Made by a program: the position numbers and the translations under genes. The notes beneath the pieces are model-generated. The model ran no database searches. It had not been told where the DNA came from and was given only the letters and a program-made list of their open reading frames with translations. Of a stretch of DNA of 18,505 bases, positions 2,895 through 18,505 are shown piece by piece; position 1 is the first letter of the stretch; every line of letters starts with the position of its first letter. The stretch lies in UHGV virus genome UHGV-0309262, one strand, 5' to 3'. The stretch comes from a virus.

Positions 2895-3146
2895 CTACTA
2901 ATAAGGAGATATAGAGCATTACTTTCCCGCTTTTGACCGACAAAAAATCGAGTTGTTAAGTATTGCCAGCCCAGGCCCAGTAAGGCTTAGCGAGGTGGTG
3001 ATTAAAAATTGACCTAATAAAAGTATCTACTAAGGAGAAAGAATAACTCCCGAAGTGAGACAAACTCTCCGATTTTGAAAGTGACTATTAAGGCAGATAA
3101 AGACACTGACACTGTTGCCGACATGAAAACCTCTATAAGGGCAGAG
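2895..3146. repeat. Array of 4 degenerate direct repeats (consensus about CTAnTAAGGnAG) upstream of the helicase gene; possible iterons or operator sites
   Basis: CTACTAATAAGGAG (2895..2908), TCTACTAAGGAG (3027..3038), GACTATTAAGGCAG (3083..3096) and CTCTATAAGGGCAGAG (3131..3146). None is followed by an ORF, so they are unlikely to be ribosome-binding sites. Confidence 0.4.
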
Positions 3147-3215
3147 AGTCTGCCGCACCTGTACCACCGCCCCAACCTGAGCTAATACCTACCCCTATTT
3201 TCTGGAGATTTCACC

Positions 3216-5060: not shown

Positions 5061-5103
5061 GCTAACTGGCTCGCCTGTTTAATTTCCTCTCTGGAGAATC
5101 CAC

Positions 5104-5535
5104 ATGCCTGATGAAACCGTGCGGCAACGCGCGGGGCGTTCTGACGCCCTGATTAATGCGCAGCTCGCTTACGCCCTGAACGGGTATTCATTTGATGGGT
5201 TGGCCGAACGTCATCGCAAGACCCTTAACCGGGAGGCCATCCTTCGCGAGGTGTCCACGCCGCTGGAGCGATATTGCCTTTTGAATGATTGCGAACCGTG
5301 GGAGTGTCTGGCCGCTGTGCTGAACCGCATGAAAAGGCCGGATGGCTCACGTTGCTGGAAAGCTGTCCGCCTGTCTGAGCGGGTTTTTAATGGTCGAGTG
5401 CATCCAGTGCGCAAGACACCTGATGAAGTTTACGCCGCCATTGCCCGCCGTTTATTTCTGCCGAAGCCCGTGCATCAAGAAGTGATACAGCACATCCGGG
5501 CGCTTGGCCTGTTACCAGTTGGAGATAACCATTAA
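5104..5535 (+). CDS. Hypothetical protein (143 aa), first gene of a coupled operon
   Basis: ORF with SD GGAGAA 6 nt upstream of the ATG. Its stop overlaps the next start (TAATG). No recognisable motif. Confidence 0.55.
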   Translation: MPDETVRQRAGRSDALINAQLAYALNGYSFDGLAERHRKTLNREAILREVSTPLERYCLLNDCEPWECLAAVLNRMKRPDGSRCWKAVRLSERVFNGRVHPVRKTPDEVYAAIARRLFLPKPVHQEVIQHIRALGLLPVGDNH

Positions 5536-5744
5536 TGACCAAAACCGAGTTTGAAGCTGGGACATGGGATATGCGGTGCCTGTTGCTGGAGGCGCTGACC
5601 CGCCGCCTGAAAGAGGACTCCGCTGGAGAATCCCGCATGGCTGCTGCCGAGCTGTCATCCTGCGTGAACTTCCTCAAGCAAAATGCCGCCGATGCGCCGG
5701 ACGCATCTTTCAATAACGTGTTCCCGGAGGATGACAACGAATGA
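5535..5744 (+). CDS. Hypothetical protein (69 aa), acidic C-terminus
   Basis: Start overlaps the preceding stop (TAATG) and the stop overlaps the next start (ATGA), indicating translational coupling. Confidence 0.45.
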   Translation: MTKTEFEAGTWDMRCLLLEALTRRLKEDSAGESRMAAAELSSCVNFLKQNAADAPDASFNNVFPEDDNE

Positions 5745-5932
5745 CGCCGCACCAGTTTAGAGCGTGGTTTAACTCGCTGCCTGAGAAGTACCAGAAGCAG
5801 GCCAAAGCCATGTACGACAACGCCCGGCGCGGCGGTGGTATCCATACCGCATCCAGCCTCGCTTTGATTAAAGACCTTGTAGAAGATTCGATTAACTTTG
5901 ATGGAGAGTTCCAGTATGACAACCACCAGTAA
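5741..5932 (+). CDS. Hypothetical protein (63 aa)
   Basis: ATGA overlap with the upstream gene; in-operon position and consistent coding composition. Confidence 0.45.
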   Translation: MTPHQFRAWFNSLPEKYQKQAKAMYDNARRGGGIHTASSLALIKDLVEDSINFDGEFQYDNHQ

Positions 5933-6494
5933 CGCAACCCTGACCCTGCGCGATATTCAGCTTATCAATAAACTGAGTATTGTTGACCACCTGAACAACG
6001 ATGAAATCTCTTCTCGCACTGGTTTCAGCCCGAGCGACATCGACCGTGTAATCCGTGGCGTCTATGTCGATGACTTGGCCGAACAGTGGAAAGACGATGC
6101 TGATATTACTCTGGCTGAATACAACGCCATCCGCAGCCGCTATAAGCCCGGCAAGCTGCACCGTGATACGGAATTTATGATTGCCCGCGATACGCTGATT
6201 CGCCCTGAAACCGTGCTGGCTATCGCTCATTCCAGATTCCAGAACGCCCACACTCACCCTGCGCCGAAAGCCGTTAAAGTGAAGCCGGAGAAAGCGAAAG
6301 CCATGCGCAAGCTGGTGCCTTCTGATTTGGATGAAATCCACAAGTTAGAGCGCTTTGGCTGGCCTGTCGCTGACATCGCCCAAAAGCTGGACGTTCCGCC
6401 AGAGGTGATCGCTTTCGTTAACCGCTGCTTAAAGAGCCGCTGGCCGTATGGTGACATTCTGGAAAATGTTAATGCGAAATGGGGAGCCGAGTGA
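5916..6494 (+). CDS. Hypothetical protein (~192 aa)
   Basis: ATG at 5916 is preceded by GGAGAG at 5902..5907. The ORF track's earlier TTG start at 5898 lacks an SD. Stop overlaps the next start (TGATG). Confidence 0.5.
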   Translation: MTTTSNATLTLRDIQLINKLSIVDHLNNDEISSRTGFSPSDIDRVIRGVYVDDLAEQWKDDADITLAEYNAIRSRYKPGKLHRDTEFMIARDTLIRPETVLAIAHSRFQNAHTHPAPKAVKVKPEKAKAMRKLVPSDLDEIHKLERFGWPVADIAQKLDVPPEVIAFVNRCLKSRWPYGDILENVNAKWGAE

Positions 6495-6724
6495 TGGAAG
6501 ATAACGACATCATTCACCCTGCAATTGACCCGACTCAATACGTCAACCTTGACGAGATGCGGGAAGGCTACGCCCCTGTTAAGCCGCAGGGGTGGGACAT
6601 CCTGACGCAGAATCTCCGAAGTGAGGCCGCACCCGAACAGCCAGTCACCGCCCGTGGACGCCGCCAGCGTCCGCGTGGCTCCGCTGGCGAGCGCCGTTGG
6701 CTACGCCGTCACGGGCTTATTTAA
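6494..6724 (+). CDS. Hypothetical protein (76 aa), Arg-rich C-terminus
   Basis: ATG 6494 overlaps the upstream stop; GGGGAG SD at 6481..6486. Confidence 0.45.
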   Translation: MEDNDIIHPAIDPTQYVNLDEMREGYAPVKPQGWDILTQNLRSEAAPEQPVTARGRRQRPRGSAGERRWLRRHGLI

Positions 6725-6738
6725 CTGAGGATTATTTC

Positions 6739-6978
6739 ATGAGCACCATCATTTTAATGGAGCCACGCCGCGCGGCTGATTGCGGGCAACAACTGAAATT
6801 CATTGCTGACGCCTTGAATCTTCGTCAAATCGACTTGGCTCGTGTGTACCAGATCGACAGACAAGATCTCGGCAAAGCGTACCACGGACAGAAGATGATT
6901 CCTGCCCGATGCGTACATGCGCACATGCTTTTACTTGAACTGGCGCACCGCCGAGTTACATCACAAGAGGTTGCATAA
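6739..6978 (+). CDS. Hypothetical small protein (79 aa)
   Basis: ATG 6739 is preceded by GAGG at 6727..6730. The track ORF starting at 6697 overlaps the previous gene and is less likely. Confidence 0.4.
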   Translation: MSTIILMEPRRAADCGQQLKFIADALNLRQIDLARVYQIDRQDLGKAYHGQKMIPARCVHAHMLLLELAHRRVTSQEVA

Positions 6979-6980
6979 TT

Positions 6981-7676
6981 ATGGCTGACAATCAAAACCC
7001 TTATCTCGCTGCTGGCGCTGATGCTGCATCGCAGCAATCGCCATACATGGCTGCACCTGTTGGAGCTGACAATGGGGCATCCCGCTTTAGCTCTGCGCCT
7101 GCTGATGCTGATTTCCTCCGTACCCAACCCGTTAACGGTAATGATGGCGGCCAATGGAATAATAGCAATATTGCTAATCAGCAAGACCAGAACGCGGACA
7201 GCGCCGGGGCGCAGGTGGGCGATACTATTCCCCTGATGGATGGAACAGCTATTGAGTACACCGCCGAGCTGCAAGGATTGATGGGGCAGTTTCACCAGTC
7301 TATAGAAAGCCAGCTCGGGCACGGAACAGTTGACGCTATGTTGCAGTACGCGGGCACGCTTGACGCCGGGACGCAATCCACCCTTGAACGTATGGTTATG
7401 TCTGGCGACCCTGCGCAGATGCAGCGGGCTGTTCAGTACCTGCAAGAGAGGATGGCCGCAGGCACTGCGACTGGTTATGTCCCGTCGCAGGGGAACACAT
7501 ATGGTCAGCCCGCCGCGCAACCTGTCGGAATGTCACACGCTGAATTCATCGCGGCGTACGATGCGCTGAATCAATGGGCTGCACAGACTGGCCGGGGTGC
7601 TGGCACGCGAGAATACGACCAGCAGTATCATGCGCTGGTTGCTCAACGCAGCGCCGGGAAGCGTGCCGGGCGCTAA
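6981..7676 (+). CDS. Hypothetical protein with a low-complexity Ala/Gln/Gly/Asn-rich N-terminal half (231 aa)
   Basis: Long ORF with no internal stops, in-operon position. The composition suggests a disordered region; no enzymatic motif recognised. Confidence 0.5.
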   Translation: MADNQNPYLAAGADAASQQSPYMAAPVGADNGASRFSSAPADADFLRTQPVNGNDGGQWNNSNIANQQDQNADSAGAQVGDTIPLMDGTAIEYTAELQGLMGQFHQSIESQLGHGTVDAMLQYAGTLDAGTQSTLERMVMSGDPAQMQRAVQYLQERMAAGTATGYVPSQGNTYGQPAAQPVGMSHAEFIAAYDALNQWAAQTGRGAGTREYDQQYHALVAQRSAGKRAGR

Positions 7677-7690
7677 CTGGAGAATTCCAT

Positions 7691-7954
7691 ATGTACGATG
7701 AGAATAGAATCCGAGTCCTGACCGAGGTAGAGAAACAATCTCACTCGGTCGATAGCATTCTTTCCATTCTGCTTGATAAATACCCCAGCACCAGCCCCGA
7801 CCATCTGACGCGTGTCGCTGAATGCCTCGTTACTTTTGGCTGGGGTGTTGCTGAATACGATGCGTACCGCGCCGGGATGCTTGGCGAAGAGAAGCGCCAG
7901 ACGATGGTCGCTTGGTTTACTGAGCGGAATTCCGCGCAACGCTGGGCTGCCTGA
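7691..7954 (+). CDS. Hypothetical protein (87 aa)
   Basis: ATG 7691 with GGAG SD 8 nt upstream, just after the upstream stop at 7674..7676. The ORF track's 7574 start lies inside the preceding gene. Confidence 0.45.
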   Translation: MYDENRIRVLTEVEKQSHSVDSILSILLDKYPSTSPDHLTRVAECLVTFGWGVAEYDAYRAGMLGEEKRQTMVAWFTERNSAQRWAA

Positions 7955-8224
7955 TTCCGATGCCAGCGCCTGACGGTGCATTGTGGGCTGCAAGTCCGAC
8001 TGGACACCTGACCCTGCGAATTAACTACTTACTGTCCACTAATCGCTGAGAGCCGCGCCAATTCTGGCCTAGCAAAGCCAGTTTCGGGTACTCGGAGACT
8101 TTTCTATCAATCTGCTTTAACCCTGATTTTCCATCTCTCTGAATCCTGCCACGGCGGGAGGATTACGCACGCCTGCACCATGACGATGGCGCGGGCTTCA
8201 TCAACCTACGTAGGAGTTTTGTTT

Positions 8225-9220
8225 ATGGCTGATACTTCGTACAGTCCCGATCTGTTTCGCCCACATTATGGCGGGGTGGAATCCGACAATGATATTCACA
8301 TCGAGGCTTATGACCGGGATGTCCAGACCCGTTTAGAGTCCAAATCCGTATTTCTGGCCGAGGGGCTGTCTACATACAGGCCGCTGAAAGGCAGCAACCA
8401 ATACCGCATTGATCGCCTGAGTGGTGATCTTGAGGTGAAGGGCAGAACCGCAGGGCAATCGCTGGAGCCTACCGCCGTTAAGTCGGACAAGCTGATCATC
8501 TCTGTGGATACTCTGAGCTATATCCGCATCCCGATTGATTATCAAGATGACTGGACTGCACCCACCTTTCGCGCCGAGCTGAGCCGCAACATGGGGACAG
8601 CCCATGCGAAGTTTTACGACGAAGCGCACACCATCCAGTTAATCAAAGCGACTGACTTTGTACCGCCGCCGACACTGCAACCAACGTTTAACCCGCTTAC
8701 GGGCAATGTTGTCTCGCTCGACCTGACAGCGGGGAGCGAAGAGGACGCCGCAAAAGAGCTGGTTCACGCTATCAAAGCTGCTGTTGATCGGTTCCTGACT
8801 GAGAAAGATATTCCGGTGGTGGAGTTGTGTCTTCTCATCGACCCGGCTTGGTTCAGCATCCTGATGGAACACAAGAAGCTGATGAACGTCCGTTATAGCC
8901 GGGATAGTGGCAACGATTACGCGTGGCGGCGCATCGGTTACGTGGCCGGGGTGCGAGTCATTGAGCTGAACAGTTACCCGCAGGAAGCCATTACCGGGCA
9001 TGAGCTGGGCGCTGATTATGACGTTACCGCAGAGGAAGCGCTGACGAGGGCGACGCTGTTTAAACCCTCCTCGGTACTGTTGACGGTCGAAGCACAGAGC
9101 GTCATCAATCGCCAGTGGGATGATGAACGCGAAATGACGGTGGTGATGGACTCATATCGCCTGTTCAACGTTGGGCTGCGTCGTCCTGATTGCGTTATCA
9201 ATTTCCGACAATCTGCGTAA
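8225..9220 (+). CDS. Hypothetical protein (331 aa); possibly structural, but this is a weak guess
   Basis: ATG 8225 preceded by AGGAG at 8210..8214, following a 270-bp intergenic gap. Size and position after a low-complexity protein loosely resemble a scaffold/capsid arrangement, but no motif confirms it. Confidence 0.5.
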   Translation: MADTSYSPDLFRPHYGGVESDNDIHIEAYDRDVQTRLESKSVFLAEGLSTYRPLKGSNQYRIDRLSGDLEVKGRTAGQSLEPTAVKSDKLIISVDTLSYIRIPIDYQDDWTAPTFRAELSRNMGTAHAKFYDEAHTIQLIKATDFVPPPTLQPTFNPLTGNVVSLDLTAGSEEDAAKELVHAIKAAVDRFLTEKDIPVVELCLLIDPAWFSILMEHKKLMNVRYSRDSGNDYAWRRIGYVAGVRVIELNSYPQEAITGHELGADYDVTAEEALTRATLFKPSSVLLTVEAQSVINRQWDDEREMTVVMDSYRLFNVGLRRPDCVINFRQSA

Positions 9221-9236
9221 CTGGAGGGGCTGGGTC

Positions 9237-9746
9237 ATGGTTAATGATACTTACGCCCCTGAGCTGTTGCGATCCCTTTTCCTGTACGACCCGGTGACAG
9301 GTCGCCTGCACCATAAAGCTAACCGACGCCGGGTTAAGGCTGGCTCCTGTGCTGACTCCACCCGTCGAGCTGATGGCTATCGTCAAGTTGCCCTGCGACT
9401 GGATGGCAAGCAGTACCAGCTAAAAGCCCACCGCGTGGCGTGGATTCTTGCGCATGGCGCTATTCCTGATGGTCTGCAAGTTGACCACATCAACGGTATC
9501 CGTGACGACAACCGCCTATGCAATCTGCGCTTGGTTACGCAGCGGGAAAACGACCAGAACCGACGCAGGGCAAAGGGTTGTAGCTGGAATAAGGGCTGTA
9601 GCAAATGGGAGGCTTACATTCGCGTTAATGGTGTACGCCATCACCTTGGCTTATTCACTAGCGAAGCGGCGGCGCGTGCTGCTTACCTGAAAGCAAAAGC
9701 CAGATACCATCCCTCGACCCCAGTCGATTTGTTAAATGCTGCTTAA
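9237..9746 (+). CDS. HNH endonuclease with AP2-like DNA-binding domain (169 aa)
   Basis: AHRVAWILAHGAIPDGLQVDHINGIRDDNRLCNLRLVTQRENDQNR matches the phage-type HNH_3 signature (H...DH.NG...DNR..NL......N). WEAYIRVNGVRHHLGLFTSEAAARAAY matches an AP2 domain. SD GGAGGGG 6 nt upstream. Confidence 0.7.
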   Translation: MVNDTYAPELLRSLFLYDPVTGRLHHKANRRRVKAGSCADSTRRADGYRQVALRLDGKQYQLKAHRVAWILAHGAIPDGLQVDHINGIRDDNRLCNLRLVTQRENDQNRRRAKGCSWNKGCSKWEAYIRVNGVRHHLGLFTSEAAARAAYLKAKARYHPSTPVDLLNAA

Positions 9747-9764
9747 ACTTTGGAGACGTAGTTT

Positions 9765-10199
9765 ATGGGGACTAAAAAGCAGGGTAGAGCAATCCGAGTG
9801 CTGCCAGATGATGACCCACGTCGCCAGCGGTACGCCGAACTGTTGGCGCAGGCTGGCCGGATGACTGTCCCCCGGTTGCATCCGGGAGACGCTAACAGCG
9901 TAATGAGCCAGCTCGCGACGATGCTTGGCGCACCAGTCCCGATAGTCGGCACTATGACGGAGCACGCCGCCGCATGGCGGACCTGCCTGCTGGAGCAAGG
10001 ACTTGGCGATCTGCTGGCTGGCTTGAGTAAGCAGGTACTGACCGTCTTCTTTCTGCTTTGCTGGAGAGACAGCGCCTTGCGGCAGGTTGGCAAGGAGCGG
10101 GAACGGCTTACGGCGGCCAGCGAAGGCTTGACCATTGAACAGTATCGGGCAATGCGCTCGGCTTACAGAGAGAATAAAGAAGATGATGACCACGATTAA
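9765..10199 (+). CDS. Hypothetical protein (144 aa)
   Basis: ORF with GGAGACG SD upstream of ATG 9765; in-operon position. Confidence 0.45.
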   Translation: MGTKKQGRAIRVLPDDDPRRQRYAELLAQAGRMTVPRLHPGDANSVMSQLATMLGAPVPIVGTMTEHAAAWRTCLLEQGLGDLLAGLSKQVLTVFFLLCWRDSALRQVGKERERLTAASEGLTIEQYRAMRSAYRENKEDDDHD

Positions 10200-10482
10200 A
10201 TTAAGGTGGCGGTACATCGATCCGCCGCCAATGGCTGGCGCACTCGCTGACCTGAAAGTGTGGGTAATGGATACCGGAGAGCCTGAGCTGGAAGCTGAAT
10301 TTCGTAAGCTGCTGGGGTTAATGCGCCGCAACGGTATCAGTGACGAACGCGTTAATGCGATGGCTGATGAGCTTTATGTTCTGGTACGGCAACGGCAGCG
10401 CGAAGAATACGAAGCCTGCAAGCGGGCTGCATCTGACAATGGAGACTTTGAATCATGGTTACACGGACAGACCAGCTACTAA
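10183..10482 (+). CDS. Hypothetical protein (~99 aa)
   Basis: ATG 10183 overlaps the end of the upstream gene. The 5' part of the track ORF (from 10135) overlaps that gene and is rejected. Confidence 0.4.
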   Translation: MMTTIKLRWRYIDPPPMAGALADLKVWVMDTGEPELEAEFRKLLGLMRRNGISDERVNAMADELYVLVRQRQREEYEACKRAASDNGDFESWLHGQTSY

Positions 10483-10883
10483 GAAAAGCTATGCGGGGCT
10501 ATCTGGAACACCTCGGCAACATGCCGTTGGCGGAACGGATTACAAACACTGCTGCATTCGAAGATGTGTATCGCTTCCTGTTGAATGGTTCCGGGCGTCT
10601 GGAGCTGCGTCGTGCTGATGTGGCCGCTGTCCGTTTCTTCTTGTGGAATTATCAATACCGCCGCTGTGCGGTGACAGGTAAGCCGCTGCGCCTTACGTCT
10701 GCCGTATTAGATCACTGCCACCGAACCGGGCGCGTGCGTGCTGTGGTGCATCGCTCTGCTAACGCTGCTGAGGGTGGCTACCATGCTGGGCGTTTGTGTG
10801 GGCTGTCGCCTAGCAGCATGAACGCGATGCTGGCGAGCTACCGCCAACAAAACCAAGGGCTGGGCGTTGTTTATCCGGGGTGA
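10455..10883 (+). CDS. Endonuclease VII-like (Holliday-junction/branched-DNA nuclease family) protein (142 aa)
   Basis: C-terminal CAVTGKPL...LDHCHRTGRVRAVVHRSANAAEG matches the Endonuclease_7 pattern (C..C...DH.H.TG.VR.....N...G). GGAGA SD upstream of ATG 10455. Confidence 0.6.
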   Translation: MVTRTDQLLRKAMRGYLEHLGNMPLAERITNTAAFEDVYRFLLNGSGRLELRRADVAAVRFFLWNYQYRRCAVTGKPLRLTSAVLDHCHRTGRVRAVVHRSANAAEGGYHAGRLCGLSPSSMNAMLASYRQQNQGLGVVYPG

Positions 10884-10895
10884 TGAGTTCTCGCT

Positions 10896-10917
10896 GCGCC
10901 GGGTTTGCACCCGGCAC
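10896..10917. terminator. Putative bidirectional hairpin between convergent transcription units
   Basis: GCCGGGT-TTGC-ACCCGGC stem-loop in the 55-bp gap between the plus-strand operon (ends 10883) and the minus-strand R gene (ends 10939). Weak U-tract. Confidence 0.3.
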
Positions 10918-10938
10918 AAAAGATGTTTAGCCCACTAG

Positions 10939-12015
10939 TCAGTGGGTTACGCAGTTTTCCATAAACGCATTAAGGAATTGATCTGTAATTCCTTGTGGTT
11001 TGCGTCGTTCACAAAGAGAATACAATTCTTCGACTGCTGAGTACGGGAAGAATTTTGTGTCCAGCTCTCGGAATTGCGGCATATTCGCAAACTCAATGAC
11101 TTTAGCACGATATTCATCGGGGGCTACGATTGTCCATCTGATATCTTGAAGCCGTGGGGCATAGTCACAAAAATTCTTCATCCGGGTTAACCCGCTTTTA
11201 ATCCCAGTGCTGTGCTCAATTTCCATCACGGCGGGCATTAATTTTCCATTTCTAAACCAAATGCAATCTATTAGTTTTGCACCGTCAATGGCCTCGCTGT
11301 ACGAGCTTAATACCTTTTCATTTGAGAGGCTATCAATTACCCCATCCATTTGAGCAATGACTTTTCCGTTATATTTAAGTCCGCGATCATTAGCTGCCAC
11401 CCATGTTCTGTAGCCTAAGTGGTGGCCGATTTTTACTAATGCAATCTGGATTTGTGCATGTCTTCTTGATTCTTCAATCGACATGCCCTCAACTGGGCGG
11501 ATCGTTTCCAGATCAACGCTTTGATATACAACCTCTGTTTTCATCTCTGATATTACAATATTAGCTTTGTATTCAGAGAGCTTACCGTTTTCGTGTGGCG
11601 AATTGGGTAAGTACACAAGATGCTTGTGGCCTTTCTTTACCGTCTGTTTAGTGTTAATAACTTCTAAACGGTCGAGTTTACACCAATAAAATTGCGGTGT
11701 GTGTGCAAGTAAACTCTCAATAACGGAACGGGAGTTATAGCTTGCACCAAGCACTCTATCTAAATTGATAGGTGCATCCTCTTGAATTGCATTAGCCAAA
11801 CGCCAAAGCATCTGGCTAGAGATGCTGTCTATTTTTGCATCTTTAAGCGTCTCGCCTTTGGTCGGATTAAAACGCTTAAAGCGTATCGGGCCTTGTGGTG
11901 ACTTAATCGAGTCGACGACAATCTTCCCAGCATTACTTTCATTCACATAATCAAACTGCCTGTTTTTGGGCAGGTTGGCTATCGCATTCACAAGATTCAT
12001 TGCTGTCAAATTCAT
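10939..12015 (-). CDS. Putative type II restriction endonuclease (358 aa), cognate to the adjacent methyltransferase
   Basis: Immediately downstream of, and overlapping by 65 nt, a C5-cytosine methyltransferase gene on the same strand. Similar low GC. AGGGA SD upstream of ATG 12015. The function is inferred from position only; no catalytic motif recognised. Confidence 0.5.
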   Translation of the reverse strand: MNLTAMNLVNAIANLPKNRQFDYVNESNAGKIVVDSIKSPQGPIRFKRFNPTKGETLKDAKIDSISSQMLWRLANAIQEDAPINLDRVLGASYNSRSVIESLLAHTPQFYWCKLDRLEVINTKQTVKKGHKHLVYLPNSPHENGKLSEYKANIVISEMKTEVVYQSVDLETIRPVEGMSIEESRRHAQIQIALVKIGHHLGYRTWVAANDRGLKYNGKVIAQMDGVIDSLSNEKVLSSYSEAIDGAKLIDCIWFRNGKLMPAVMEIEHSTGIKSGLTRMKNFCDYAPRLQDIRWTIVAPDEYRAKVIEFANMPQFRELDTKFFPYSAVEELYSLCERRKPQGITDQFLNAFMENCVTH

Positions 12016-13090
12016 CTTTTATCCCTAAATGCTCTAATATAGATTTTGCTATTCCGAAGGCTGCAAGGTAAGGAACACCATTACCAACAGTTTTGAACAT
12101 ATTTGAAAGAGTCATATAAGATGGCAATTCAAACTCTTTCGGCAAAGACTGAATGGCAAGCGCTTCTGCAACTGTTATTCTGCGTGGCTTATATGGATGT
12201 AAATGAACCTCGTTATTACCATAAGCAGCAGTCGGCGAATATCTCCAGCGGTGGAGGCGCTTGTAAGATTTTTTACTATCGTCACCTTCTGCAACAGCCT
12301 TGAAGCGTACTAATCCAGCTCTGGCCGTAAATACATGCTTCGCGTTCACATGTTCAGAAACATTATTTTTCTTAAACCAGTAATCAACAGTTAATTCTTG
12401 TGGGAGTGACTCTGGCATTGCAAGTGTAGAGTCCTCGGAAAATTCATTTGTTGTTGGCCAACTGTAACTAAAGGCATTACGATCCGGGTATAATCTGCCA
12501 CTCCAATTAAATGACTTGGCTAGTCTCTTACTTTGGAAACCCAATAGAATAATGCGCTCTCGGTCTTGCGGAGCACCGTATTCAATCGAATTAATCAACC
12601 TTTCATGAAGAGTGTAACCCACATCCATCAACTGCTCTTTGAGATGCTCAAAAAACTCGCGATGCTTGAGTGTGCGATATAACCCCTTGACGTTCTCGAA
12701 CAAGAAGAAGTCAGGTTTCATCTCTACAATTATATCAATGTAGCTTTGGGACAGCTTACCATTCTCCCCATCGCGCCCTTTGTTTTTGCCCGCAACGGAG
12801 AAGTCGGGGCAAGGTGGGCCACCAATGAAGCCAATCAGTCTTTTTTCTTTCTTGAGTGTTTTAATAGCGTCTTTCAACTGCTTGTGATCAACTTCCTCTA
12901 TGCTCTTTTCGGCATAGCCAAAACGAGGGATAGGCTTGTTCATTACCGCACGCGAGTGCTTGTAAGCATCCATAAACGGCGGGTGAAATTCATTCACAAA
13001 AACCACTTCGTAGCCTGAGTTTTCAAAGCCAAGGTCTAAAAAGCCTGAGCCGGAAAAGAAAGAGAAGATGGCGGGTTTAAGTGTGGACAT
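11951..13090 (-). CDS. DNA (cytosine-5)-methyltransferase (379 aa)
   Basis: C5-MTase motifs in the expected order: motif I FSGSGF (F-x-G-x-G), motif IV GGPPCP (the catalytic Pro-Cys), motif VI ENV (FLFENVKGL), motif VIII QDRER, motif X GNGVP near the C-terminus. Confidence 0.8.
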   Translation of the reverse strand: MSTLKPAIFSFFSGSGFLDLGFENSGYEVVFVNEFHPPFMDAYKHSRAVMNKPIPRFGYAEKSIEEVDHKQLKDAIKTLKKEKRLIGFIGGPPCPDFSVAGKNKGRDGENGKLSQSYIDIIVEMKPDFFLFENVKGLYRTLKHREFFEHLKEQLMDVGYTLHERLINSIEYGAPQDRERIILLGFQSKRLAKSFNWSGRLYPDRNAFSYSWPTTNEFSEDSTLAMPESLPQELTVDYWFKKNNVSEHVNAKHVFTARAGLVRFKAVAEGDDSKKSYKRLHRWRYSPTAAYGNNEVHLHPYKPRRITVAEALAIQSLPKEFELPSYMTLSNMFKTVGNGVPYLAAFGIAKSILEHLGIKDEFDSNESCECDSQPAQKQAV

Positions 13091-13225
13091 TTTTTACCTA
13101 TTGCTGATCATTAAGACATGCGAAAACGCCCCTGCATCTTAACAGATGAGGGGGTCATTGCAACGGATTGCGGGGAGCTGTAGCGATGAGCTGGCTCAGA
13201 TGAACGATTCAAACATCCATTAAAT

Positions 13226-14434
13226 TTAAAGGGCTATTTGATGGTTCACAAACTCCACGTAGCGTGATAGTTCGGCTGGGGCTGCTGCGTTTTTCGAATA
13301 TGTTTTGAAGCTCTCCGTGTTACCTCGCTCATGGCCGACGAGCAGGGCAATGCGATCCTCTGGCACTTGAGCACGGTCGAGCTGTTGCACAAACGCATGG
13401 CGGAGTGAATGAAACACTTTTCTCTCTGCGGCAGGCTCGCCAAGAGCTTTACGCTTTGCTCGCGTGAATTGTTGCGTATGCCACGTTGAGCGCTTCCCAT
13501 CGGCCCGGTCTGTAATAGATGCGTGATAGAACAGAAAACCGCTATGTGTGGTTTTGAGCAATGATTTCATGAGGGGGATTAACTTGCTGTGTACAGGGAC
13601 AATTCGCGCTGCGCTCTTAGTTTTCCCCTCGGTGATCTCAAAGCACAATATCCCCTCGATAGTTTTAATGCTGCTTTCACGTAGCGTACATATCTCATTG
13701 ATCCGCATACCGCTGTATGCACCAATAGCCGTTACCGCCTTCATCTCATCATCAAGCAAAGCATAGACCTTTGCCAGCTCACCCGGTGCGAAGACTTCAT
13801 AGCTGACCTTGCTGCTTTTTGCTTCGAGCGCATGACCGCGCCAAGGATTGTCTTGTGGCGCATCGTGATAGCGATTGCGTGCCAGATCCCATATCTGCGC
13901 CAGTGCGCTTATATAGTTTTGAATAGTTTGGGGCGCTCGCTCAGTTTTGAGCTTATCTAACCAGCCTGTAACTATGGTTCGGTTAATATCCCGCAACTGA
14001 ACATCTTTCTTTTTCAGGTGGGTTAACAGCACCTCTACGGCTTTGTTGGTCTTAGATAGCGTTGTTAGCTTTCTCTTCTCGCTGTATTGGAGAAGATACA
14101 GATCGCGCATTTTAAGTAGGGAGGGGCAAGCCTGAACCGATGCACCAAATGATGCGGGGGCTTCCTTGGCATATACACTGACACGGCGTAGCTCATCAAT
14201 GATTTGATCGACGGATGAGCCGCCTTGCGGTTTTAGCAGATTCCGTAAGCGAGTCCATTCCAGAGCAATAGCATCGCGAAACAAACGCGCTTGCCGTATG
14301 TCGCGTGTCCCTGTGCTTTTCATAAAGTAGCGCTTCCCTTGGAACAGGTGACGCATATAGCTGGGGATAGCTATCCGCACGAGGTAATTACCGCAGGGAT
14401 CTAAAACTAGATAACGATCTCTCTTGAAACTCAT
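13226..14434 (-). CDS. Tyrosine recombinase / phage-type integrase of the inserted element (402 aa)
   Basis: C-terminal catalytic signature: R in YSGMRINEI, HSLRHAF (H-x-x-R box), LLVGH, and the nucleophile Y in TESFKTYSKN. Lies next to the right direct repeat. Confidence 0.8.
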   Translation of the reverse strand: MSFKRDRYLVLDPCGNYLVRIAIPSYMRHLFQGKRYFMKSTGTRDIRQARLFRDAIALEWTRLRNLLKPQGGSSVDQIIDELRRVSVYAKEAPASFGASVQACPSLLKMRDLYLLQYSEKRKLTTLSKTNKAVEVLLTHLKKKDVQLRDINRTIVTGWLDKLKTERAPQTIQNYISALAQIWDLARNRYHDAPQDNPWRGHALEAKSSKVSYEVFAPGELAKVYALLDDEMKAVTAIGAYSGMRINEICTLRESSIKTIEGILCFEITEGKTKSAARIVPVHSKLIPLMKSLLKTTHSGFLFYHASITDRADGKRSTWHTQQFTRAKRKALGEPAAERKVFHSLRHAFVQQLDRAQVPEDRIALLVGHERGNTESFKTYSKNAAAPAELSRYVEFVNHQIAL

Positions 14435-14567
14435 ACAAACCCCGGTTATGTTGTCGGGGCTTTTTCATGGCTAAACAGTCTGTGAAATGTGCCGGGGTTA
14501 TGAGCTTTAGTCTCGCTGGTTCAATGATTTAACAATGATTCTTGAAGCAAGCTAAGCCGCCTAAACC

Positions 14568-14598
14568 CGTGCCGGTTCGAGTCCGGCCTTCGGCACCA
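14568..14598. repeat. attR core: displaced original 3' end of leuX
   Basis: Identical 31-bp copy of tRNA positions 110..140, located ~165 bp upstream of the P4-like integrase where an intact leuX would normally sit. Confidence 0.8.
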
Positions 14599-14710
14599 TT
14601 AGTACTTCCAAGACCATCCGAGAAAGTCCAATTATTCCTTAAAAATCAATGATTTAAGCGATTTTTACGTCCTGAGTCGTCCGAGGTTGTCCGTTGAAAT
14701 CCGGATGTCA

Positions 14711-14764
14711 TTGGGGGCATAATTGGGGGCATCTTAACTTCGATTAGAAATGTGCCCCCAAATG
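14711..14764. promoter_or_regulatory. Direct and inverted repeats of a TTGGGGGC motif upstream of and overlapping the intB start; putative integrase operator or arm-type site
   Basis: TTGGGGGCAT (14711..14720) and TTGGGGGCAT (14723..14732) are direct repeats. Their reverse complement GCCCCCAA sits at 14753..14760, overlapping the start codon. Confidence 0.3.
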
Positions 14765-16027
14765 AAGCTCAACGCCAGACAGGTCGAGACCGCAAAGCCA
14801 AAAGACAAAACCTATAAAATGGCCGATGGCGGCGGTTTGTATCTCGAGGTTTCGGCCAAGGGTTCTAAATACTGGCGCATGAAATACAGACGCCCCTCAG
14901 ACAAAAAAGAGGATCGCCTCGCTTTTGGTGTTTGGCCTACTGTGACGCTTGCTCAGGCAAGAGCAAAGCGCGACGAAGCTAAAAAGCTGTTAGTGCAGGG
15001 CATTGACCCAAAAGCCGAACTGAAAGAAGCTCAGGCCGAGAATTCGGGGGCATATACTTTCGAAACCATTGGCCGTGAATGGCATGCCAGTAACAAGCGC
15101 TGGAGTGAAGACCATCGATCACGCGTTCTTCGCTATCTTGAGCTTTATATCTTCCCTCATATCGGTTCGTCCGACATTCGCCAGCTCAAAACTAGCCACC
15201 TGTTAGCCCCGATTAAAAAAGTTGATGCCAGTGGAAAGCATGACGTCGCTCAGCGCTTGCAACAGCGCGTTACGGCCATTATGCGTTATGCCGTACAGAA
15301 CGATTACATCGACTCAAATCCAGCCAGTGATATGGCCGGTGCGCTATCGACAACCAAAGCGCGGCACTATCCTGCTTTGCCCTCTAGCCGCTTCCCAGAG
15401 TTTCTTGCTCGTCTTGCTGCATATCGTGGCCGTGTAATGACACGGATCGCGGTCGAGCTTTCCTTACTCACTTTTGTACGTTCCAGTGAGTTACGTTTCG
15501 CGCGTTGGGATGAATTCGACTTCGATAAATCTCTTTGGCGTATACCGGCAAAACGAGAAGAAATTAAAGGCGTGCGTTACTCGTATCGTGGCATGAAAAT
15601 GAAAGAGGAGCATATTGTTCCTCTCAGTCGGCAGGCGATGGTTTTATTAGAGCAGCTCAAGCAAATTAGTGGTGATAAAGAGCTGCTGTTCCCGGGAGAT
15701 CATGACGCAACTAAGGTTATGAGTGAAAACACGGTAAACAGTGCATTGCGTGCAATGGGATATGACACGAAAACTGAGGTCTGTGGGCATGGGTTCAGAA
15801 CGATGGCGCGTGGTGCTATGGGTGAGTCAGGGTTGTGGAGTGATGACGCGATAGAGCGACAGCTGAGCCATTCAGAACGTAATAACGTGCGTGCAGCTTA
15901 TATTCATACTTCTGAGCATTTGGATGAGCGACGTTTAATGATTCAGTGGTGGGCTGATTATCTTGATGAGTTAAATAATAATTACATTACTCCATTTGAT
16001 TTCGCTAAAATACAAAAAAATTATTAA
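14762..16027 (+). CDS. intB: P4-family tyrosine integrase (421 aa)
   Basis: N-terminus MKLNARQVETAKPKDKTYKMADGGGLYLEV is the hallmark P4-like integrase arm-binding signature (AKPK..Y...DGGGLYL). Typical position just downstream of the leuX 3' end. The in-frame ATG at 14750 is an alternative start. Confidence 0.85.
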   Translation: MKLNARQVETAKPKDKTYKMADGGGLYLEVSAKGSKYWRMKYRRPSDKKEDRLAFGVWPTVTLAQARAKRDEAKKLLVQGIDPKAELKEAQAENSGAYTFETIGREWHASNKRWSEDHRSRVLRYLELYIFPHIGSSDIRQLKTSHLLAPIKKVDASGKHDVAQRLQQRVTAIMRYAVQNDYIDSNPASDMAGALSTTKARHYPALPSSRFPEFLARLAAYRGRVMTRIAVELSLLTFVRSSELRFARWDEFDFDKSLWRIPAKREEIKGVRYSYRGMKMKEEHIVPLSRQAMVLLEQLKQISGDKELLFPGDHDATKVMSENTVNSALRAMGYDTKTEVCGHGFRTMARGAMGESGLWSDDAIERQLSHSERNNVRAAYIHTSEHLDERRLMIQWWADYLDELNNNYITPFDFAKIQKNY

Positions 16028-16038
16028 TATTTACATGG

Positions 16039-16062
16039 AAGGGCTGAAAGAACAGCCCTTCT
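16039..16062. terminator. Bidirectional rho-independent-type terminator between intB and the convergent AT-rich locus
   Basis: Perfect 9-bp stem GAAGGGCTG / CAGCCCTTC with loop AAAGAA, flanked by T-rich sequence on both strands. Confidence 0.5.
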
Positions 16063-16070
16063 AATATATT

Positions 16071-16327
16071 TAATTATTTTTCAGTAATCCTTTATCTTCT
16101 AATTCTGTATAGATAGCTAGCGGTAATTTTAAGGAATCATAATCATTATTCCTTAACCATTCCTTCGCCGCACTTACCGAAGGGTTTGAGTTTGGAATGA
16201 TATTCTCTAGATACGATGCTGTAATTCTAGATAACCCTAGTTCGATGAATACTTGCCCTGCGATAGATGAAACCCCTAGTTCAAGTGATAATGGAAAATC
16301 ATAGATTTCTTCAGATTTTTTTCTTGG
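16071..16327 (-). other. Start-less 84-codon open frame overlapping the helicase 3' end; possible frameshifted C-terminal extension or gene remnant
   Basis: My translation of the minus strand gives ...KSEEIYDFPLSLELGVSSIAGQVFIELGLSRITASYLENIIPNSNPSVSAAKEWLRNNDYDSLKLPLAIYTELEDKGLLKNN* with no ATG, GTG or TTG. It is in the -1 frame relative to the helicase and begins at an A7 tract (plus-strand T7 at 16306..16312). Confidence 0.3.
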
Positions 16328-18345
16328 TTATTTTCAATTAAAGCTTGGCGCAATAAGTCAATATATGCCTTGCCAAGTTGCACATATTTGAATCGCAAGT
16401 TATCTTCCACGAAATCAAAAACCTCTCTTACAGCTCTGTCCACATTTACAGGCCTAGTGGAGTTTTTTTCTTTTTTCTTATTTATGGAGAGAGAGATTAT
16501 CTCCGGCAGAGATTTACCCCTCATCCAATTCAAAGCCATTGAAGTTAGATAGTTAGAAAATTTAGATGTATTATGGTTAAGGATGTATTTATTTATTCTG
16601 CTAAAAACACCAACGTAATTTTTGTAAACATCACCTGAAGGATGGCGAGGTATAAGTTCGTCAACTTTACCTTCCTTTATTTTCTGGATAAATCTATTGT
16701 ACAATCGTTCCTGTCCAAATGGATCAACTGTCCAGTTCAGAGTTAAAACCTCATGAGGTATTTTAAGTGATTCTAATGAGATATAAGTGGCATTTTCAAT
16801 AGTTTCAAGTTTTGATTTGTCAGATATAGTTCGAAATAATCTTTTAAGAAAATTATGCAAATCTCCTTTTGCGGCTCTGGAGATTAAAAGGCCTGCCGCT
16901 GCATCAATATTACTATATGGCGTCACTCCTGAATGATTATTTTTGTCTAATCGTGATATTACTGTGTCAAAATCTTCATTAATTACTTTCTTAAAAGATG
17001 AAGTAATTTTGAAGTCTATTTTGGAATCTAAAGGCTTGGTTACCCAATCATCATAGTCAATAAGATAAACATTTCCCGAAAATGCATAACCTAATCTACC
17101 TGCCCGCCCTGCGAAATTCCATAGCGATGCTGGATCTAATTTTTCTCCCCTGTTTCCTCGTGTAGGTGTATCAATAAAAACATTCTTTGCAGGCAGATTA
17201 ACCCCTTGAAAAAGGGTTGTTGTGCAAACTAAAAACTTCAGTTTATTATTCGTGAAATTTTTTTCTAATGTTTCTCTTAATAAGCTTGGCATTTTACCAT
17301 AATGGTATCCAACCCCTCTCAATACGAGGTTTGCAAGAGAGTAATCCTTGTGGACATGTTTTTTTATAAATTTTGAGAGCTCTTGTAATTCACTGTCATC
17401 CTCTAAAAGAGGTAATCCAGAAGATATTTGCTTAGCTACATCTTCTGCATTGGCAGCTCCGGTTCCGTAAACTAAAGACCCCTCATTTTTTCCTAATTCT
17501 AATGCGACAGCCGCCAATCTTGTATTTTCATTGGCGAAACCCCTTGTCGATTCTATTTCTCCGATCGGTAATATGTTTGAATTGTCTAATAATGATAATT
17601 GTAAGTTGTTTTCTTTTGATGGATCAACTTTGACGATAATTTTGTTTTGAACTACAGGAGATAGATTTGTTTTTTCAATATGGATTGCATCGATTCCAAT
17701 AATATCTGCTAAATCATCAAAACCTTCAGCACCAGGCGCGAGGAAAACATATTTTGCATTAGGGTTTTGTGTGCTAATTTTATCAAGGCAGTCCTGTAAT
17801 ATCATCCCCCTAATTTCGTCAGAAATTGATTGTGCTTCGTCAATAACTACCAAGTCTATTTTTTCTTCAAAATTATCAAGCAATACTTGAAGTCTTTCCT
17901 GTGTTAAAACAAATATCTGCTTATTATATTCGTTATTAATTGTTGGTATGGATGTTACTCTGACTTCATTTTGATATGGTAAAGTCTTGATTATAAATTT
18001 TTGTGTTATTTCATTTACTAAAGCACGGGTTGGTGCTATATAAATGGCGGAATTTAATTCGCCGCTAATTATTCTGTTGGCGAGCATTTCCACAACTAAG
18101 AACGATTTTCCGGCTGATGTTGGAGCTGATATAGCTTGAGGGACATTCGAGTGCAATGACTCCCATACTCTTTTCTGAAAGTTTGTTAATGTTATTTCTT
18201 TGTTGGAGATCTTTATTTTATTTTCATTTTCTATGAAAGATCTTTTTAAGAAGGCATAAAAACTTTCTGGTATAAATCCATTTTCTTGTTGAAGATAAGT
18301 TGCTCCAGGGAAGTTGCCCAAAACTCTTAAAAGATTTTCTGACAT
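16276..18345 (-). CDS. Ski2/Hel308-like superfamily 2 DExx-box helicase (~689 aa) in very AT-rich DNA; candidate anti-phage defence gene
   Basis: Motif I APTSAGKS, motif II VVIDEAQ, motif VI FAGRAGRLG, and a Ski2/Hel308-like block GVGYHYGKMPSLLRETLEKNF...LKFLVCTTTLFQGVNLPAKNV. Start taken as ATG 18345 (MSENLL...). The ORF track's TTG start at 18381 lies inside the IS1 inverted repeat and is rejected. Confidence 0.7.
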   Translation of the reverse strand: MSENLLRVLGNFPGATYLQQENGFIPESFYAFLKRSFIENENKIKISNKEITLTNFQKRVWESLHSNVPQAISAPTSAGKSFLVVEMLANRIISGELNSAIYIAPTRALVNEITQKFIIKTLPYQNEVRVTSIPTINNEYNKQIFVLTQERLQVLLDNFEEKIDLVVIDEAQSISDEIRGMILQDCLDKISTQNPNAKYVFLAPGAEGFDDLADIIGIDAIHIEKTNLSPVVQNKIIVKVDPSKENNLQLSLLDNSNILPIGEIESTRGFANENTRLAAVALELGKNEGSLVYGTGAANAEDVAKQISSGLPLLEDDSELQELSKFIKKHVHKDYSLANLVLRGVGYHYGKMPSLLRETLEKNFTNNKLKFLVCTTTLFQGVNLPAKNVFIDTPTRGNRGEKLDPASLWNFAGRAGRLGYAFSGNVYLIDYDDWVTKPLDSKIDFKITSSFKKVINEDFDTVISRLDKNNHSGVTPYSNIDAAAGLLISRAAKGDLHNFLKRLFRTISDKSKLETIENATYISLESLKIPHEVLTLNWTVDPFGQERLYNRFIQKIKEGKVDELIPRHPSGDVYKNYVGVFSRINKYILNHNTSKFSNYLTSMALNWMRGKSLPEIISLSINKKKEKNSTRPVNVDRAVREVFDFVEDNLRFKYVQLGKAYIDLLRQALIENNQEKNLKKSMIFHYHLN

Positions 18346-18367
18346 TTGTTTCAAATAATCATCACCG

Positions 18368-18505
18368 GGTGATGCTGCCAACTTACTGATTTAGTGTATG
18401 ATGGTGTTTTTGAGGTGCTCCAGTGGCTTCTGTTTCTATCAGCTGTCCCTCCTGTTCAGCTACTGACGGGGTGGTGCGTAACGGCAAAAGCACCGCCGGA
18501 CATCA
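18368..18505 (+). mobile_element. IS1 insertion sequence, left end (IRL plus 5' region), truncated by the window edge
   Basis: GGTGATGCTGCCAACTTACTGATTTAGTGTATGATGGTGTTTTTGAGGTGCTCCAGTGGCTTCTGTTTCTATCAGCTGTCCC... matches the IS1 left terminus and insA leader as recalled from memory. Composition jumps abruptly from ~30% GC to ~50% GC at 18367/18368. Confidence 0.8.
18423..18505 (+). CDS. insA: IS1 InsA, N-terminal fragment (continues beyond the window)
   Basis: GTG start followed by a translation [27 protein letters not shown], the zinc-finger-containing N-terminus of InsA. Confidence 0.7.

What the first reader, a model, noticed from the sequence alone, without database searches (positions are those of the whole stretch)
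16028..18367. AT-rich Ski2/Hel308-like helicase as cargo next to a P4-like integrase: candidate anti-phage system
A ~690 aa SF2 helicase sits convergent to the P4-family integrase, in DNA of ~30% GC by eye against ~50% for the surroundings. That compositional contrast is the signature of recently acquired cargo. Integrase-proximal cargo slots of P4-like elements are known hotspots for anti-phage systems, and several defence families use a Ski2-like or DExD/H helicase as effector or sensor, usually with a partner gene (for example Hachiman HamA/HamB). Only one intact gene is visible here, so this is either a single-gene system or the surviving half of a two-gene system.
Basis: partly seen in the sequence, partly recalled or inferred. 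Interest (0 to 1): 0.75.

Follow-up and report, generated by a model that had tools for sequence, protein, structure and literature searches.

The report
Broken Hachiman defence helicase gene (hamB)
The AT-rich helicase next to the P4-type integrase is hamB, the sensor helicase of the already known two-gene Hachiman anti-phage system, but this copy is a dead remnant: an IS1 element has cut off its front end and partner gene, and a one-base deletion disrupts its tail.

Summary
The ORF is real: minus strand, 16276-18381, 689 aa from ATG 18345, 34% GC against 48-55% around it, convergent with a P4-family integrase. It is not an unknown candidate system and it is not intact.

PADLOC scores it as Hachiman HamB (PDLC00187, 1042 bits), but only over profile positions 83-774 of 851. 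E. coli 1368KP carries the same DNA (99.92% over 3.8 kb) as an intact P4-like satellite at tRNA-Leu (leuX). Its order is int, hamB (852 aa), hamA (346 aa, PF08878), delta/psu, primase.

Against that copy the window has two lesions:
- An IS1 left end starts at 18368. It cuts off hamB codons 1-87, the promoter and hamA. The contig ends 138 nt into IS1.
- A one-base deletion in an A8 run (16316-16322) shifts the frame at codon 771. The last 82 codons (16070-16315) are left out of frame.

The single-gene option and "intact" are not.

This is a known system in a known hotspot. Interest is low.

The parts
14568..14598 (+). 31-bp copy of the 3' end of tRNA-Leu(CAA) (leuX). It is the left attachment site of the P4-like element and the right boundary of the unrelated island 141-14567.
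   Evidence: Exact 31-bp direct repeat of 110-140. The tRNA is at 56-140. Homology to the 1368KP P4-like satellite starts exactly here, inside that strain's tRNA-Leu.
14750..16027 (+). P4-family tyrosine integrase, intact (RefSeq start corresponds to 14762, 421 aa).
   Evidence: PF13356 + PF22022 + PF00589. NF007246 at 269 bits (4.5e-80), below that model's curated cut-off of 434. No nucleotide difference from the 1368KP integrase.
16036..16063 (.). 11-bp-stem G+C-rich hairpin in the 42-bp gap between the convergent int and hamB stops. Likely a shared, bidirectional terminator.
   Evidence: Terminator-like site. Position relative to the int stop (16027) and the true hamB stop (16070). Function is inferred.
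16070..16315 (-). Displaced 3' end of hamB: codons 771-852 plus the true stop (TAA, 16070-16072). It is out of frame with the rest of the gene.
   Evidence: Frame translation gives ...KKSEEIYDFPLSLELGV...KGLLKNN*, identical to the C-terminus of intact HamB.
16316..16322 (-). Frameshift site: an A7 run on the coding strand where the intact allele has A8 (GAA AAA AAA TCT becomes GAA AAA AAT CTG).
   Evidence: The only gap in the 3.8-kb alignment to L001. Sequence read.
16276..18367 (-). Open part of the hamB remnant: codons 88-770 of the 852-codon gene, then 13 aberrant codons (NLKKSMIFHYHLN) and a premature stop at 16276-16278. It holds the helicase core: Walker A AGKS 172-175, motif II DEAQ 263-266, motif VI GRAGR 507-511 (intact-protein numbering).
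   Evidence: PADLOC HamB1 PDLC00187, 1042 bits, profile 83-774/851. Residue mapping and motifs. Two substitutions against the intact allele, S597L and T732A.
18368..18505 (+). Left end of IS1: terminal inverted repeat GGTGATGCTGCC... and the start of the insA region, reading away from hamB. The window and the source contig end here.
   Evidence: 138/138 identity to the end of an annotated IS1 in E. coli 744, L003 9747-9884. Homology to intact hamB stops at 18367. The source contig is 18,506 bp.

Best explanation
This is an inactivated copy of hamB, the Ski2-like sensor helicase of a type I (I-A-like) Hachiman anti-phage system. It is carried as cargo in the int-proximal variable slot of a P4-like phage satellite integrated at leuX. 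In the intact form, hamA (a DUF1837 PD-(D/E)xK nuclease) and hamB are co-transcribed towards int. From published work on other Hachiman systems, HamB holds HamA through its N-terminal helical domain. It surveys DNA, and when it loads on damaged DNA or free DNA ends its ATP-driven movement activates HamA. HamA then degrades phage and host DNA alike, which is abortive infection. In this window the system is broken in two places. An IS1 insertion after codon 87 separates the helicase core from its start codon, its promoter, most of its N-terminal domain and hamA. A -1 frameshift in an A8 run removes the last 82 residues. The remaining 689-codon ORF starts at an internal Met and has no recognisable promoter or ribosome-binding site. 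It is most likely a non-functional pseudogene. Shown: the identity as HamB, both lesions, the architecture of the intact locus and the mobile-element context. Inferred: the mechanism of the intact system (by homology), the loss of function, and the role of the lost N-terminal segment in HamA binding.
For:: HamB1 PDLC00187, 1042 bits, but only profile positions 83-774 of 851; the next non-Hachiman model (PDC-M23B) scores 134 bits; window 14568-18367 matches E. coli 1368KP at 99.92% (2 mismatches, 1 gap), and the match ends exactly at the IS1 terminus; that locus reads tRNA-Leu, int, hamB (852 aa, profile 1-849/851, 1224 bits), hamA (346 aa, PDLC00172 468 bits, PF08878 6e-43), ogr/delta, psu, icd-like, primase, which is a P4-like satellite; the downstream frame encodes the authentic HamB C-terminus, and the shift lies in an A8-to-A7 run; 138/138 identity to annotated IS1; no promoter-like site reads out of IS1 into the remnant; the only one at the junction (18375-18402, + strand) points into IS1; the exact 689-aa product is on 3 contigs, while the intact 852-aa protein is on 89. 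(PMC12278908, PMC11914072): the HamB N-terminal helical domain binds HamA, both proteins and their complex are required for defence, and deleting either gene abolishes it. Hachiman is reported in P4 satellites, and the psu-int slot is a documented defence hotspot.
Against: The window stops 138 nt into IS1, so hamA and the 5' end of hamB may survive on the far side; what lies there is unknown. The source is a short-read metagenome assembly (k141 contig). The homopolymer deletion could therefore be a sequencing or assembly error, and the IS1 junction could belong to only part of the population. The N-terminal domain of this HamB (residues 1 to about 142) does not align by sequence to any solved HamB, so its HamA-binding role rests on analogy. 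No expression or phenotype data exist.
Confidence: 0.92

Rival explanations
1. The system is intact in the organism, and the lesions are artefacts of metagenome assembly. Under this reading the A7 run is a homopolymer error, and the IS1 junction comes from a minority strain or a graph mis-join, so a working hamAB pair is present.
For: The source is an ENA metagenome contig named k141_59542. The name suggests an assembly k-mer of 141 nt, and the contig ends 138 nt into a multi-copy IS, about one such k-mer, which is the usual place for an assembly to break. The rest of the element differs from an intact isolate at only two bases.
Against: Sequence spanning the hamB/IS1 junction must exist in the reads for the contig to extend 138 nt into IS1. 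The identical 689-aa product, which needs the frameshift, is recorded on three contigs. Independent IS1 insertions and frameshifts in this same gene are common in finished E. coli genomes, so decay here is plausible biology.
Confidence: 0.05
2. It is a functional stand-alone (single-gene) helicase defence system. Under this reading the 689-aa protein, made from Met95, acts as sensor and effector without a partner.
For: The ORF is long and open, and it keeps Walker A, DEAQ and motif VI. Some defence systems are single helicase-containing proteins (own knowledge).
Against: It carries no effector domain: Pfam finds only helicase-type matches, chiefly the two RecA-like domains. Its full-length relatives in the loci I read are 852 aa and paired with HamA, and the HamB PADLOC profiles are 709-1163 positions long. 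The ATG is internal, with about 20 nt to the IS1 end, and I saw no clear Shine-Dalgarno sequence or promoter. Published deletions of hamA abolish Hachiman defence (PMC12278908).
Confidence: 0.02
3. It is a housekeeping Hel308/RadD-like DNA-repair helicase of the host chromosome.
For: Weak sequence similarity to Hel308 equivalog models (1e-23 to 1e-26) and to Hel308, Ski2 and Pol-theta helicase structures.
Against: The scores of 83-90 bits are ten-fold below the curated cut-offs of 887-1200. The gene is present in only 130 of 5426 complete E. coli genomes, in one copy each on the chromosome. In the loci read it lies beside a P4-type integrase, at the leuX tRNA-Leu gene where the flanks show it. 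It has 34% GC. The HamB profile scores 1042 bits.
Confidence: 0.01

Closest known systems
Hachiman hamAB of the P4-like satellite at leuX in E. coli 1368KP (NZ_CM173843.1; HamB WP_119912875.1, HamA WP_089518975.1)
   Same: The DNA is 99.92% identical from the att site through int to hamB codon 88. It has the same integrase, the same convergent arrangement and the same low GC (hamB 33.8%, hamA 35.4%, against 50% for the P4 core).
   Different: The window copy has IS1 after codon 87, a -1 frameshift at codon 771, and substitutions S597L and T732A. hamA and the P4 core are not visible. The element sits in tandem behind another island instead of directly at the tRNA.
Decayed hamAB remnant carried by about 118 complete E. 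coli genomes (for example W5-6, NZ_CP032992.1)
   Same: It is the same allele family (98.8-99.1% identity) beside the same integrase type. It is also pseudogenised, and some strains carry extra IS1 insertions inside hamB.
   Different: The lesions are different and independent: 1-bp deletions near hamB codon 722 and in the 3' part of hamA. The P4 core is replaced by IS debris. The window copy derives from the intact 1368KP-like allele, not from this lineage.
E. coli ECOR31 HamAB (PDB 8VX9, 8VXA, 8VXC, 8VXY; PMC12278908)
   Same: It is the same system type: a DUF1837 nuclease plus a Ski2-like helicase with an N-terminal helical HamA-binding domain. This is the source of the mechanism adopted here.
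   Different: It is a distant relative. ECOR31 HamB is 1174 aa, and it matches only within RecA2 at E = 6.8e-7. HamA of the 1368KP-type system has no sequence-detectable solved relative.
AbpAB, or type I-B Hachiman, of E. coli K-12 (PDB 8ZUE; PMC11914072)
   Same: The HamB-type helicase has an N-terminal TPR-like domain that binds the DUF1837 domain. Walker A is needed for defence.
   Different: There, HamA carries an extra N-terminal Cap4 nuclease domain. Here HamA is DUF1837 only, so type I-A in that paper's scheme. Helicase similarity is limited to RecA2 (E = 1e-19).
PDB 9WH1 chain B (853 aa, deposited as 'DNA polymerase theta (Helicase domain only)')
   Same: It is the closest solved sequence: E = 1.6e-36 over the whole helicase core (query 49-430), and its length is nearly the same as intact HamB.
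   Different: The identity is modest. The N- and C-terminal domains do not align. I could not establish what the entry is or whether it contains a HamA partner.

Membership tests
Hachiman type I (HamA + HamB) | An SF2 Ski2-like helicase that matches HamB profiles | tested here: met
   PDLC00187 HamB1, E = 0, 1042 bits. Twenty-two of the 25 models listed are HamB models; the best non-Hachiman model scores 134 bits.
Hachiman type I (HamA + HamB) | An adjacent hamA gene (DUF1837 / PF08878) upstream in the same operon | tested here: not met
   No hamA is in the window, because IS1 starts at 18368 and the contig ends at 18505. In the 99.9%-identical intact locus, hamA (346 aa, PF08878 6e-43, PDLC00172 468 bits) overlaps the hamB start. 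Whether hamA lies beyond the IS1 here cannot be seen.
Hachiman type I (HamA + HamB) | Full-length HamB with the N-terminal helical domain that binds HamA | tested here: not met
   The profile match begins at position 83 of 851. Codons 1-87 of 852 are absent. The helicase core begins near residue 143, so about 60% of the N-terminal domain is lost. Its HamA-binding role comes from PMC12278908 and PMC11914072, by analogy.
Hachiman type I (HamA + HamB) | An uninterrupted reading frame through the C-terminal domain | tested here: not met
   A -1 frameshift in the A8 run at codon 771 leaves the last 82 codons out of frame.
Hachiman type I (HamA + HamB) | Catalytic helicase motifs (Walker A, DExx, motif VI) | tested here: met
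   AGKS 172-175, DEAQ 263-266 and GRAGR 507-511 are retained in the remnant.
Hachiman type I (HamA + HamB) | Protection against phage through DNA degradation or abortive infection | not testable with these tools
   This needs plaque assays. Published data exist only for other Hachiman loci.
P4-like phage satellite (defence hotspot between int and psu) | A P4-type tyrosine integrase integrated at the 3' end of a tRNA gene | tested here: met
   Arm-DNA-bind_3 + Phage_int_M + Phage_integrase. A 31-bp leuX 3'-end repeat lies at 14568-14598, about 150 bp upstream of int.
P4-like phage satellite (defence hotspot between int and psu) | P4 core genes (psu, delta, sid, alpha primase-helicase) beyond the cargo | tested here: inconclusive
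   None lies in the window, which ends in IS1. In the near-identical 1368KP element they follow hamA: ogr/delta, two psu-family genes, icd-like and primase.
IS1 | IS1 terminal inverted repeat and adjoining sequence | tested here: met
   138/138 identity to the end of an annotated IS1 (L003 9747-9884), starting GGTGATGCTGCC. The transposase genes and the other end lie outside the window.
Hel308 / archaeal-type repair helicase | A score above the curated equivalog cut-off | tested here: not met
   82.6-90.5 bits against cut-offs of 887-1200.

The most novel reading that the evidence does not exclude
The damage to this Hachiman allele may not be accidental. Among complete E. coli genomes, the >=98.8%-identical copies (120 of the 130 carriers) are, with at most a few exceptions, frameshifted or IS-interrupted, through at least three independent routes. 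The window adds a fourth. Such a pattern would point to recurrent selection against an active HamAB, for example self-DNA degradation triggered by ordinary DNA damage. That would be a counter-example to the recent claim that defence genes in P4 satellites are swapped before they decay. A more speculative variant is that the HamA-free helicase core (residues 95-770) is still expressed and has some activity of its own.
Probability: 0.06. Interest if true: 0.4.

Novelty: already known. Interest (0 to 1): 0.12.

Why it matters
It matters little beyond correct annotation. Hachiman, its HamA/HamB mechanism and the P4 int-psu defence hotspot are all published, and standard tools (PADLOC) recognise this gene at once. 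The useful outcome is negative: this locus should not be scored as a candidate new or single-gene defence system, and it should not be counted as an active Hachiman. One small point is worth keeping. The >=98.8%-identical copies of this hamAB allele in finished E. coli genomes are mostly pseudogenised by independent events, which bears on the fitness cost and turnover of satellite-borne defence systems.

Tried and rejected
- **Housekeeping Hel308/RadD helicase:** rejected, because the NCBIfam scores are ten-fold below their cut-offs and the gene is rare and island-borne.
- **Other helicase-containing defence families:** the only non-Hachiman PADLOC family in the list is PDC-M23B at 134 bits, against 1042 for HamB.
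- **Finding the source genome beyond IS1:** the exact-protein look-up returned only the same 18.5-kb metagenome contig and two collapsed look-alikes. No complete E. coli genome covers more than 70% of the window. The far side of the IS1 therefore stays unknown.
- **A promoter reading out of IS1 into the remnant:** none was found. Promoter-like sites in the region were no more frequent than in shuffles, 9 against 9.5.
- **A solved structure for the partner HamA by sequence:** no hit.
- **A sequence match between the HamB N-terminal domain and solved HamB structures:** none; only the helicase core aligns. The HamA-interface loss is therefore argued by analogy.
- **Searches not run:** Family identity was already unambiguous and an intact, near-identical reference locus was in hand.
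Full report
**Observation.** The window holds a long minus-strand ORF at 16276-18381. It is 701 aa from an upstream TTG and 689 aa from the ATG at 18345.
- It carries the two RecA-like SF2 helicase domains (PF00270, PF00271).
- Its nearest non-defence relatives are Hel308, Ski2 and Pol-theta-type helicases.
- It runs convergent to a P4-family tyrosine integrase at 14750-16027 (Arm-DNA-bind_3, Phage_int_M, Phage_integrase).
- GC content is 34.3% over 16028-18367, against 48.0% for the integrase and 54.5% for the first 10.9 kb.

The description of what is there is therefore essentially right. The claim that the gene is intact is not.

**Identity.** Against PADLOC the protein scores 1042 bits (E = 0) on HamB1 model PDLC00187. 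Twenty-two of the 25 listed matches are HamB models, and the best non-Hachiman family reaches 134 bits. The match covers only profile positions 83-774 of 851, so both ends of the protein are missing. Hel308 equivalog models score 83-90 bits against cut-offs of 887-1200. A housekeeping repair helicase is excluded.

**The intact counterpart.**
- megablast against 5426 complete E. coli genomes finds this DNA in 130 of them, once each and always on the chromosome.
- The best match, strain 1368KP, is identical to window 14568-18367 except for two substitutions and one single-base gap, which is 99.92% identity.
- That locus reads: tRNA-Leu, P4-type integrase, hamB (852 aa, minus strand), hamA (346 aa, overlapping the hamB start), ogr/delta-like, two psu-family genes, an HTH regulator, icd-like, DUF5375 and a primase-helicase. 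This is a P4-like satellite with its cargo in the integrase-proximal slot.
- The 852-aa protein fills the HamB profile end to end (1-849/851, 1224 bits).
- The 346-aa protein is a full HamA (PDLC00172 468 bits; PF08878 6e-43). It contains a GLDG...LESK stretch that fits the D-E(X)K nuclease motif.
- HamA has only the DUF1837 domain, so it is type I-A in the scheme of PMC11914072.
- hamB and hamA are 34-35% GC against 50% for the P4 core. The compositional contrast is a property of the cargo module.

**Lesion 1, IS1.** Homology to intact hamB stops at 18367. From 18368 the window reads GGTGATGCTGCCAACTTACTGAT..., which is 138/138 identical to the end of an annotated IS1 in E. coli 744.
- The break corresponds to codon 87/88 of hamB.
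- The start codon, the promoter, the first 87 codons and hamA are therefore all separated from the helicase core.
- I saw no clear ribosome-binding site in the roughly 20 nt between it and IS1.
- No promoter-like site reads out of the IS1 end towards it. The only one at the junction points into IS1.
- The window is essentially a whole metagenome contig (ENA ERZ27268480, k141_59542, 18,506 bp). It ends 138 nt into IS1, where an assembly would break on a repeat. What lies beyond is unknown.

**Lesion 2, frameshift.** The single alignment gap falls in a homopolymer: T7 at 16316-16322, against T8 in 1368KP.
- On the coding strand, GAA AAA AAA TCT (E769 K770 K771 S772) becomes GAA AAA AAT CTG.
- This gives 13 aberrant residues and a stop at 16276-16278.
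- The authentic C-terminus (…KKSEEIYDFPLSLELGV…KGLLKNN*) is still readable in another frame down to the true stop at 16070-16072.
The in-frame part equals HamB residues 88-770.
- The helicase motifs survive: AGKS 172-175, DEAQ 263-266, GRAGR 507-511.
- The two base substitutions are both nonsynonymous, S597L and T732A. This is compatible with relaxed constraint, but two events are too few to argue from.
- The exact 689-aa product is recorded on three metagenome contigs, and the intact 852-aa protein on 89 contigs. This argues that the frameshift is real rather than a one-off error.

**How it works, and why this copy should not.** The mechanism is taken from published work on other Hachiman systems, so it is inferred for this allele.
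- HamA and HamB form a 1:1 complex through an N-terminal helical bundle (TPR-like domain) of HamB.
- On damaged DNA or DNA ends, its ATP-driven ratcheting remodels the interface and activates HamA.
- HamA then degrades phage and host DNA alike, which is abortive infection.
- Deleting either gene, killing either active site, or disrupting the interface abolishes defence (PMC12278908; PMC11914072).

In the 852-aa protein the helicase core starts near residue 143. The IS1 insertion therefore removes about 60% of the N-terminal domain, along with the gene's expression signals and its linkage to hamA. The frameshift removes the last 82 residues. Either lesion alone would probably be disabling. Together they make a functional Hachiman, or a functional single-gene system, very unlikely.

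**Context.**
- The tRNA-Leu(CAA) gene is at 56-140.
- Its last 31 nt recur at 14568-14598. Positions 141-14567 are therefore a separate 14.4-kb island, and the P4-like element sits behind it in tandem.
- Each element occupies leuX alone in other strains: the island in 22AR0118 and the satellite in 1368KP.
- The psu-int slot of P4-like satellites is a documented defence hotspot (PMC9122126).
- Hachiman is explicitly listed among P4-borne systems (bioRxiv 10.64898/2026.02.27.708500).

**Population picture.**
- Of the 130 E. coli carriers, about 118 hold a form 99.1% identical to 1368KP. In the copy I aligned (L002, strain W5-6) both genes carry 1-bp deletions, at hamB near codon 722 and at hamA near codon 290, and the flanks are full of IS fragments.
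- At least two genomes have IS1 inside hamB at other positions.
- About ten carry an 84%-identical allele annotated as one uninterrupted helicase gene plus hamA. I did not inspect those copies.
- 1368KP is the only one confirmed intact among the 98.8-100%-identical copies; two others (ETEC1702, C21) are annotated without a split helicase but were not read.
- The window's copy descends from the intact 1368KP-like allele and was disabled independently.
- This sits somewhat awkwardly with the preprint's statement that defence pseudogenes are rare in P4 elements. It may reflect a cost of this system. I did not test that.

**Verdict.** Novelty: already known. Interest: low.

Noticed in passing
window 141-14567 (bounded by 110-140 and 14568-14598): A separate 14.4-kb integrative island lies in tandem at leuX, flanked by a 31-bp direct repeat of the tRNA 3' end. 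It encodes a serine recombinase (1223-1906), a 614-aa helicase (3216-5060), an HK97-type major head protein (8180-9220), an HNH endonuclease (9171-9746), an endonuclease VII (10455-10883), a type II R-M pair, and a DUF6538-type tyrosine integrase (13226-14434, minus strand). It looks like a capsid-gene-bearing satellite-like element. It occurs alone at leuX in E. coli 22AR0118 at 94% identity. I did not classify it.
   Followed up: partly
window 10939-13090 (minus strand): A lower-GC (42.6%) type II restriction-modification module sits inside that island. The C-5 cytosine methyltransferase (11951-13090; PF00145, PDLC03355 544 bits) overlaps by 65 nt a 358-aa restriction enzyme (10939-12015; PDLC03534 408 bits; NmeDI_C in the contig's precomputed Pfam). 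It appears intact, so the window does carry one apparently complete defence system.
   Followed up: partly
L002 9001-12700 (E. coli W5-6) and about 118 similar genomes; L003 (strain 744): The widespread E. coli form of this hamAB allele is itself dead. It has 1-bp deletions in both hamB (split into 726 + 124 aa) and hamA (300 instead of 346 aa), it lies in an IS-riddled P4 remnant, and some strains carry further IS1 insertions. These are several independent inactivations of one Hachiman allele. They contrast with a 2026 preprint's claim that defence pseudogenes are rare in P4.
   Followed up: partly
window 16434 and 16838: The only two base substitutions against the intact 1368KP element over 3.8 kb both fall in hamB, and both change the protein (T732A, S597L). 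The integrase is identical. This is suggestive of relaxed constraint but statistically meaningless (n = 2).
   Followed up: no
window 16036-16063: An 11-bp-stem hairpin (GGAAGGGCTG...CAGCCCTTC) fills the 42-bp gap between the convergent int and hamB stop codons. It is probably a shared bidirectional terminator, and it is conserved in 1368KP.
   Followed up: no
PDB 9WH1/9WHK/9WHU chain B: The closest solved sequence to this HamB (E = 1.6e-36, 853 aa, almost the same length) is deposited under the name 'DNA polymerase theta (Helicase domain only)'. It may be a bacterial HamB-like defence helicase under a misleading label. I could not check the entry.
   Followed up: no
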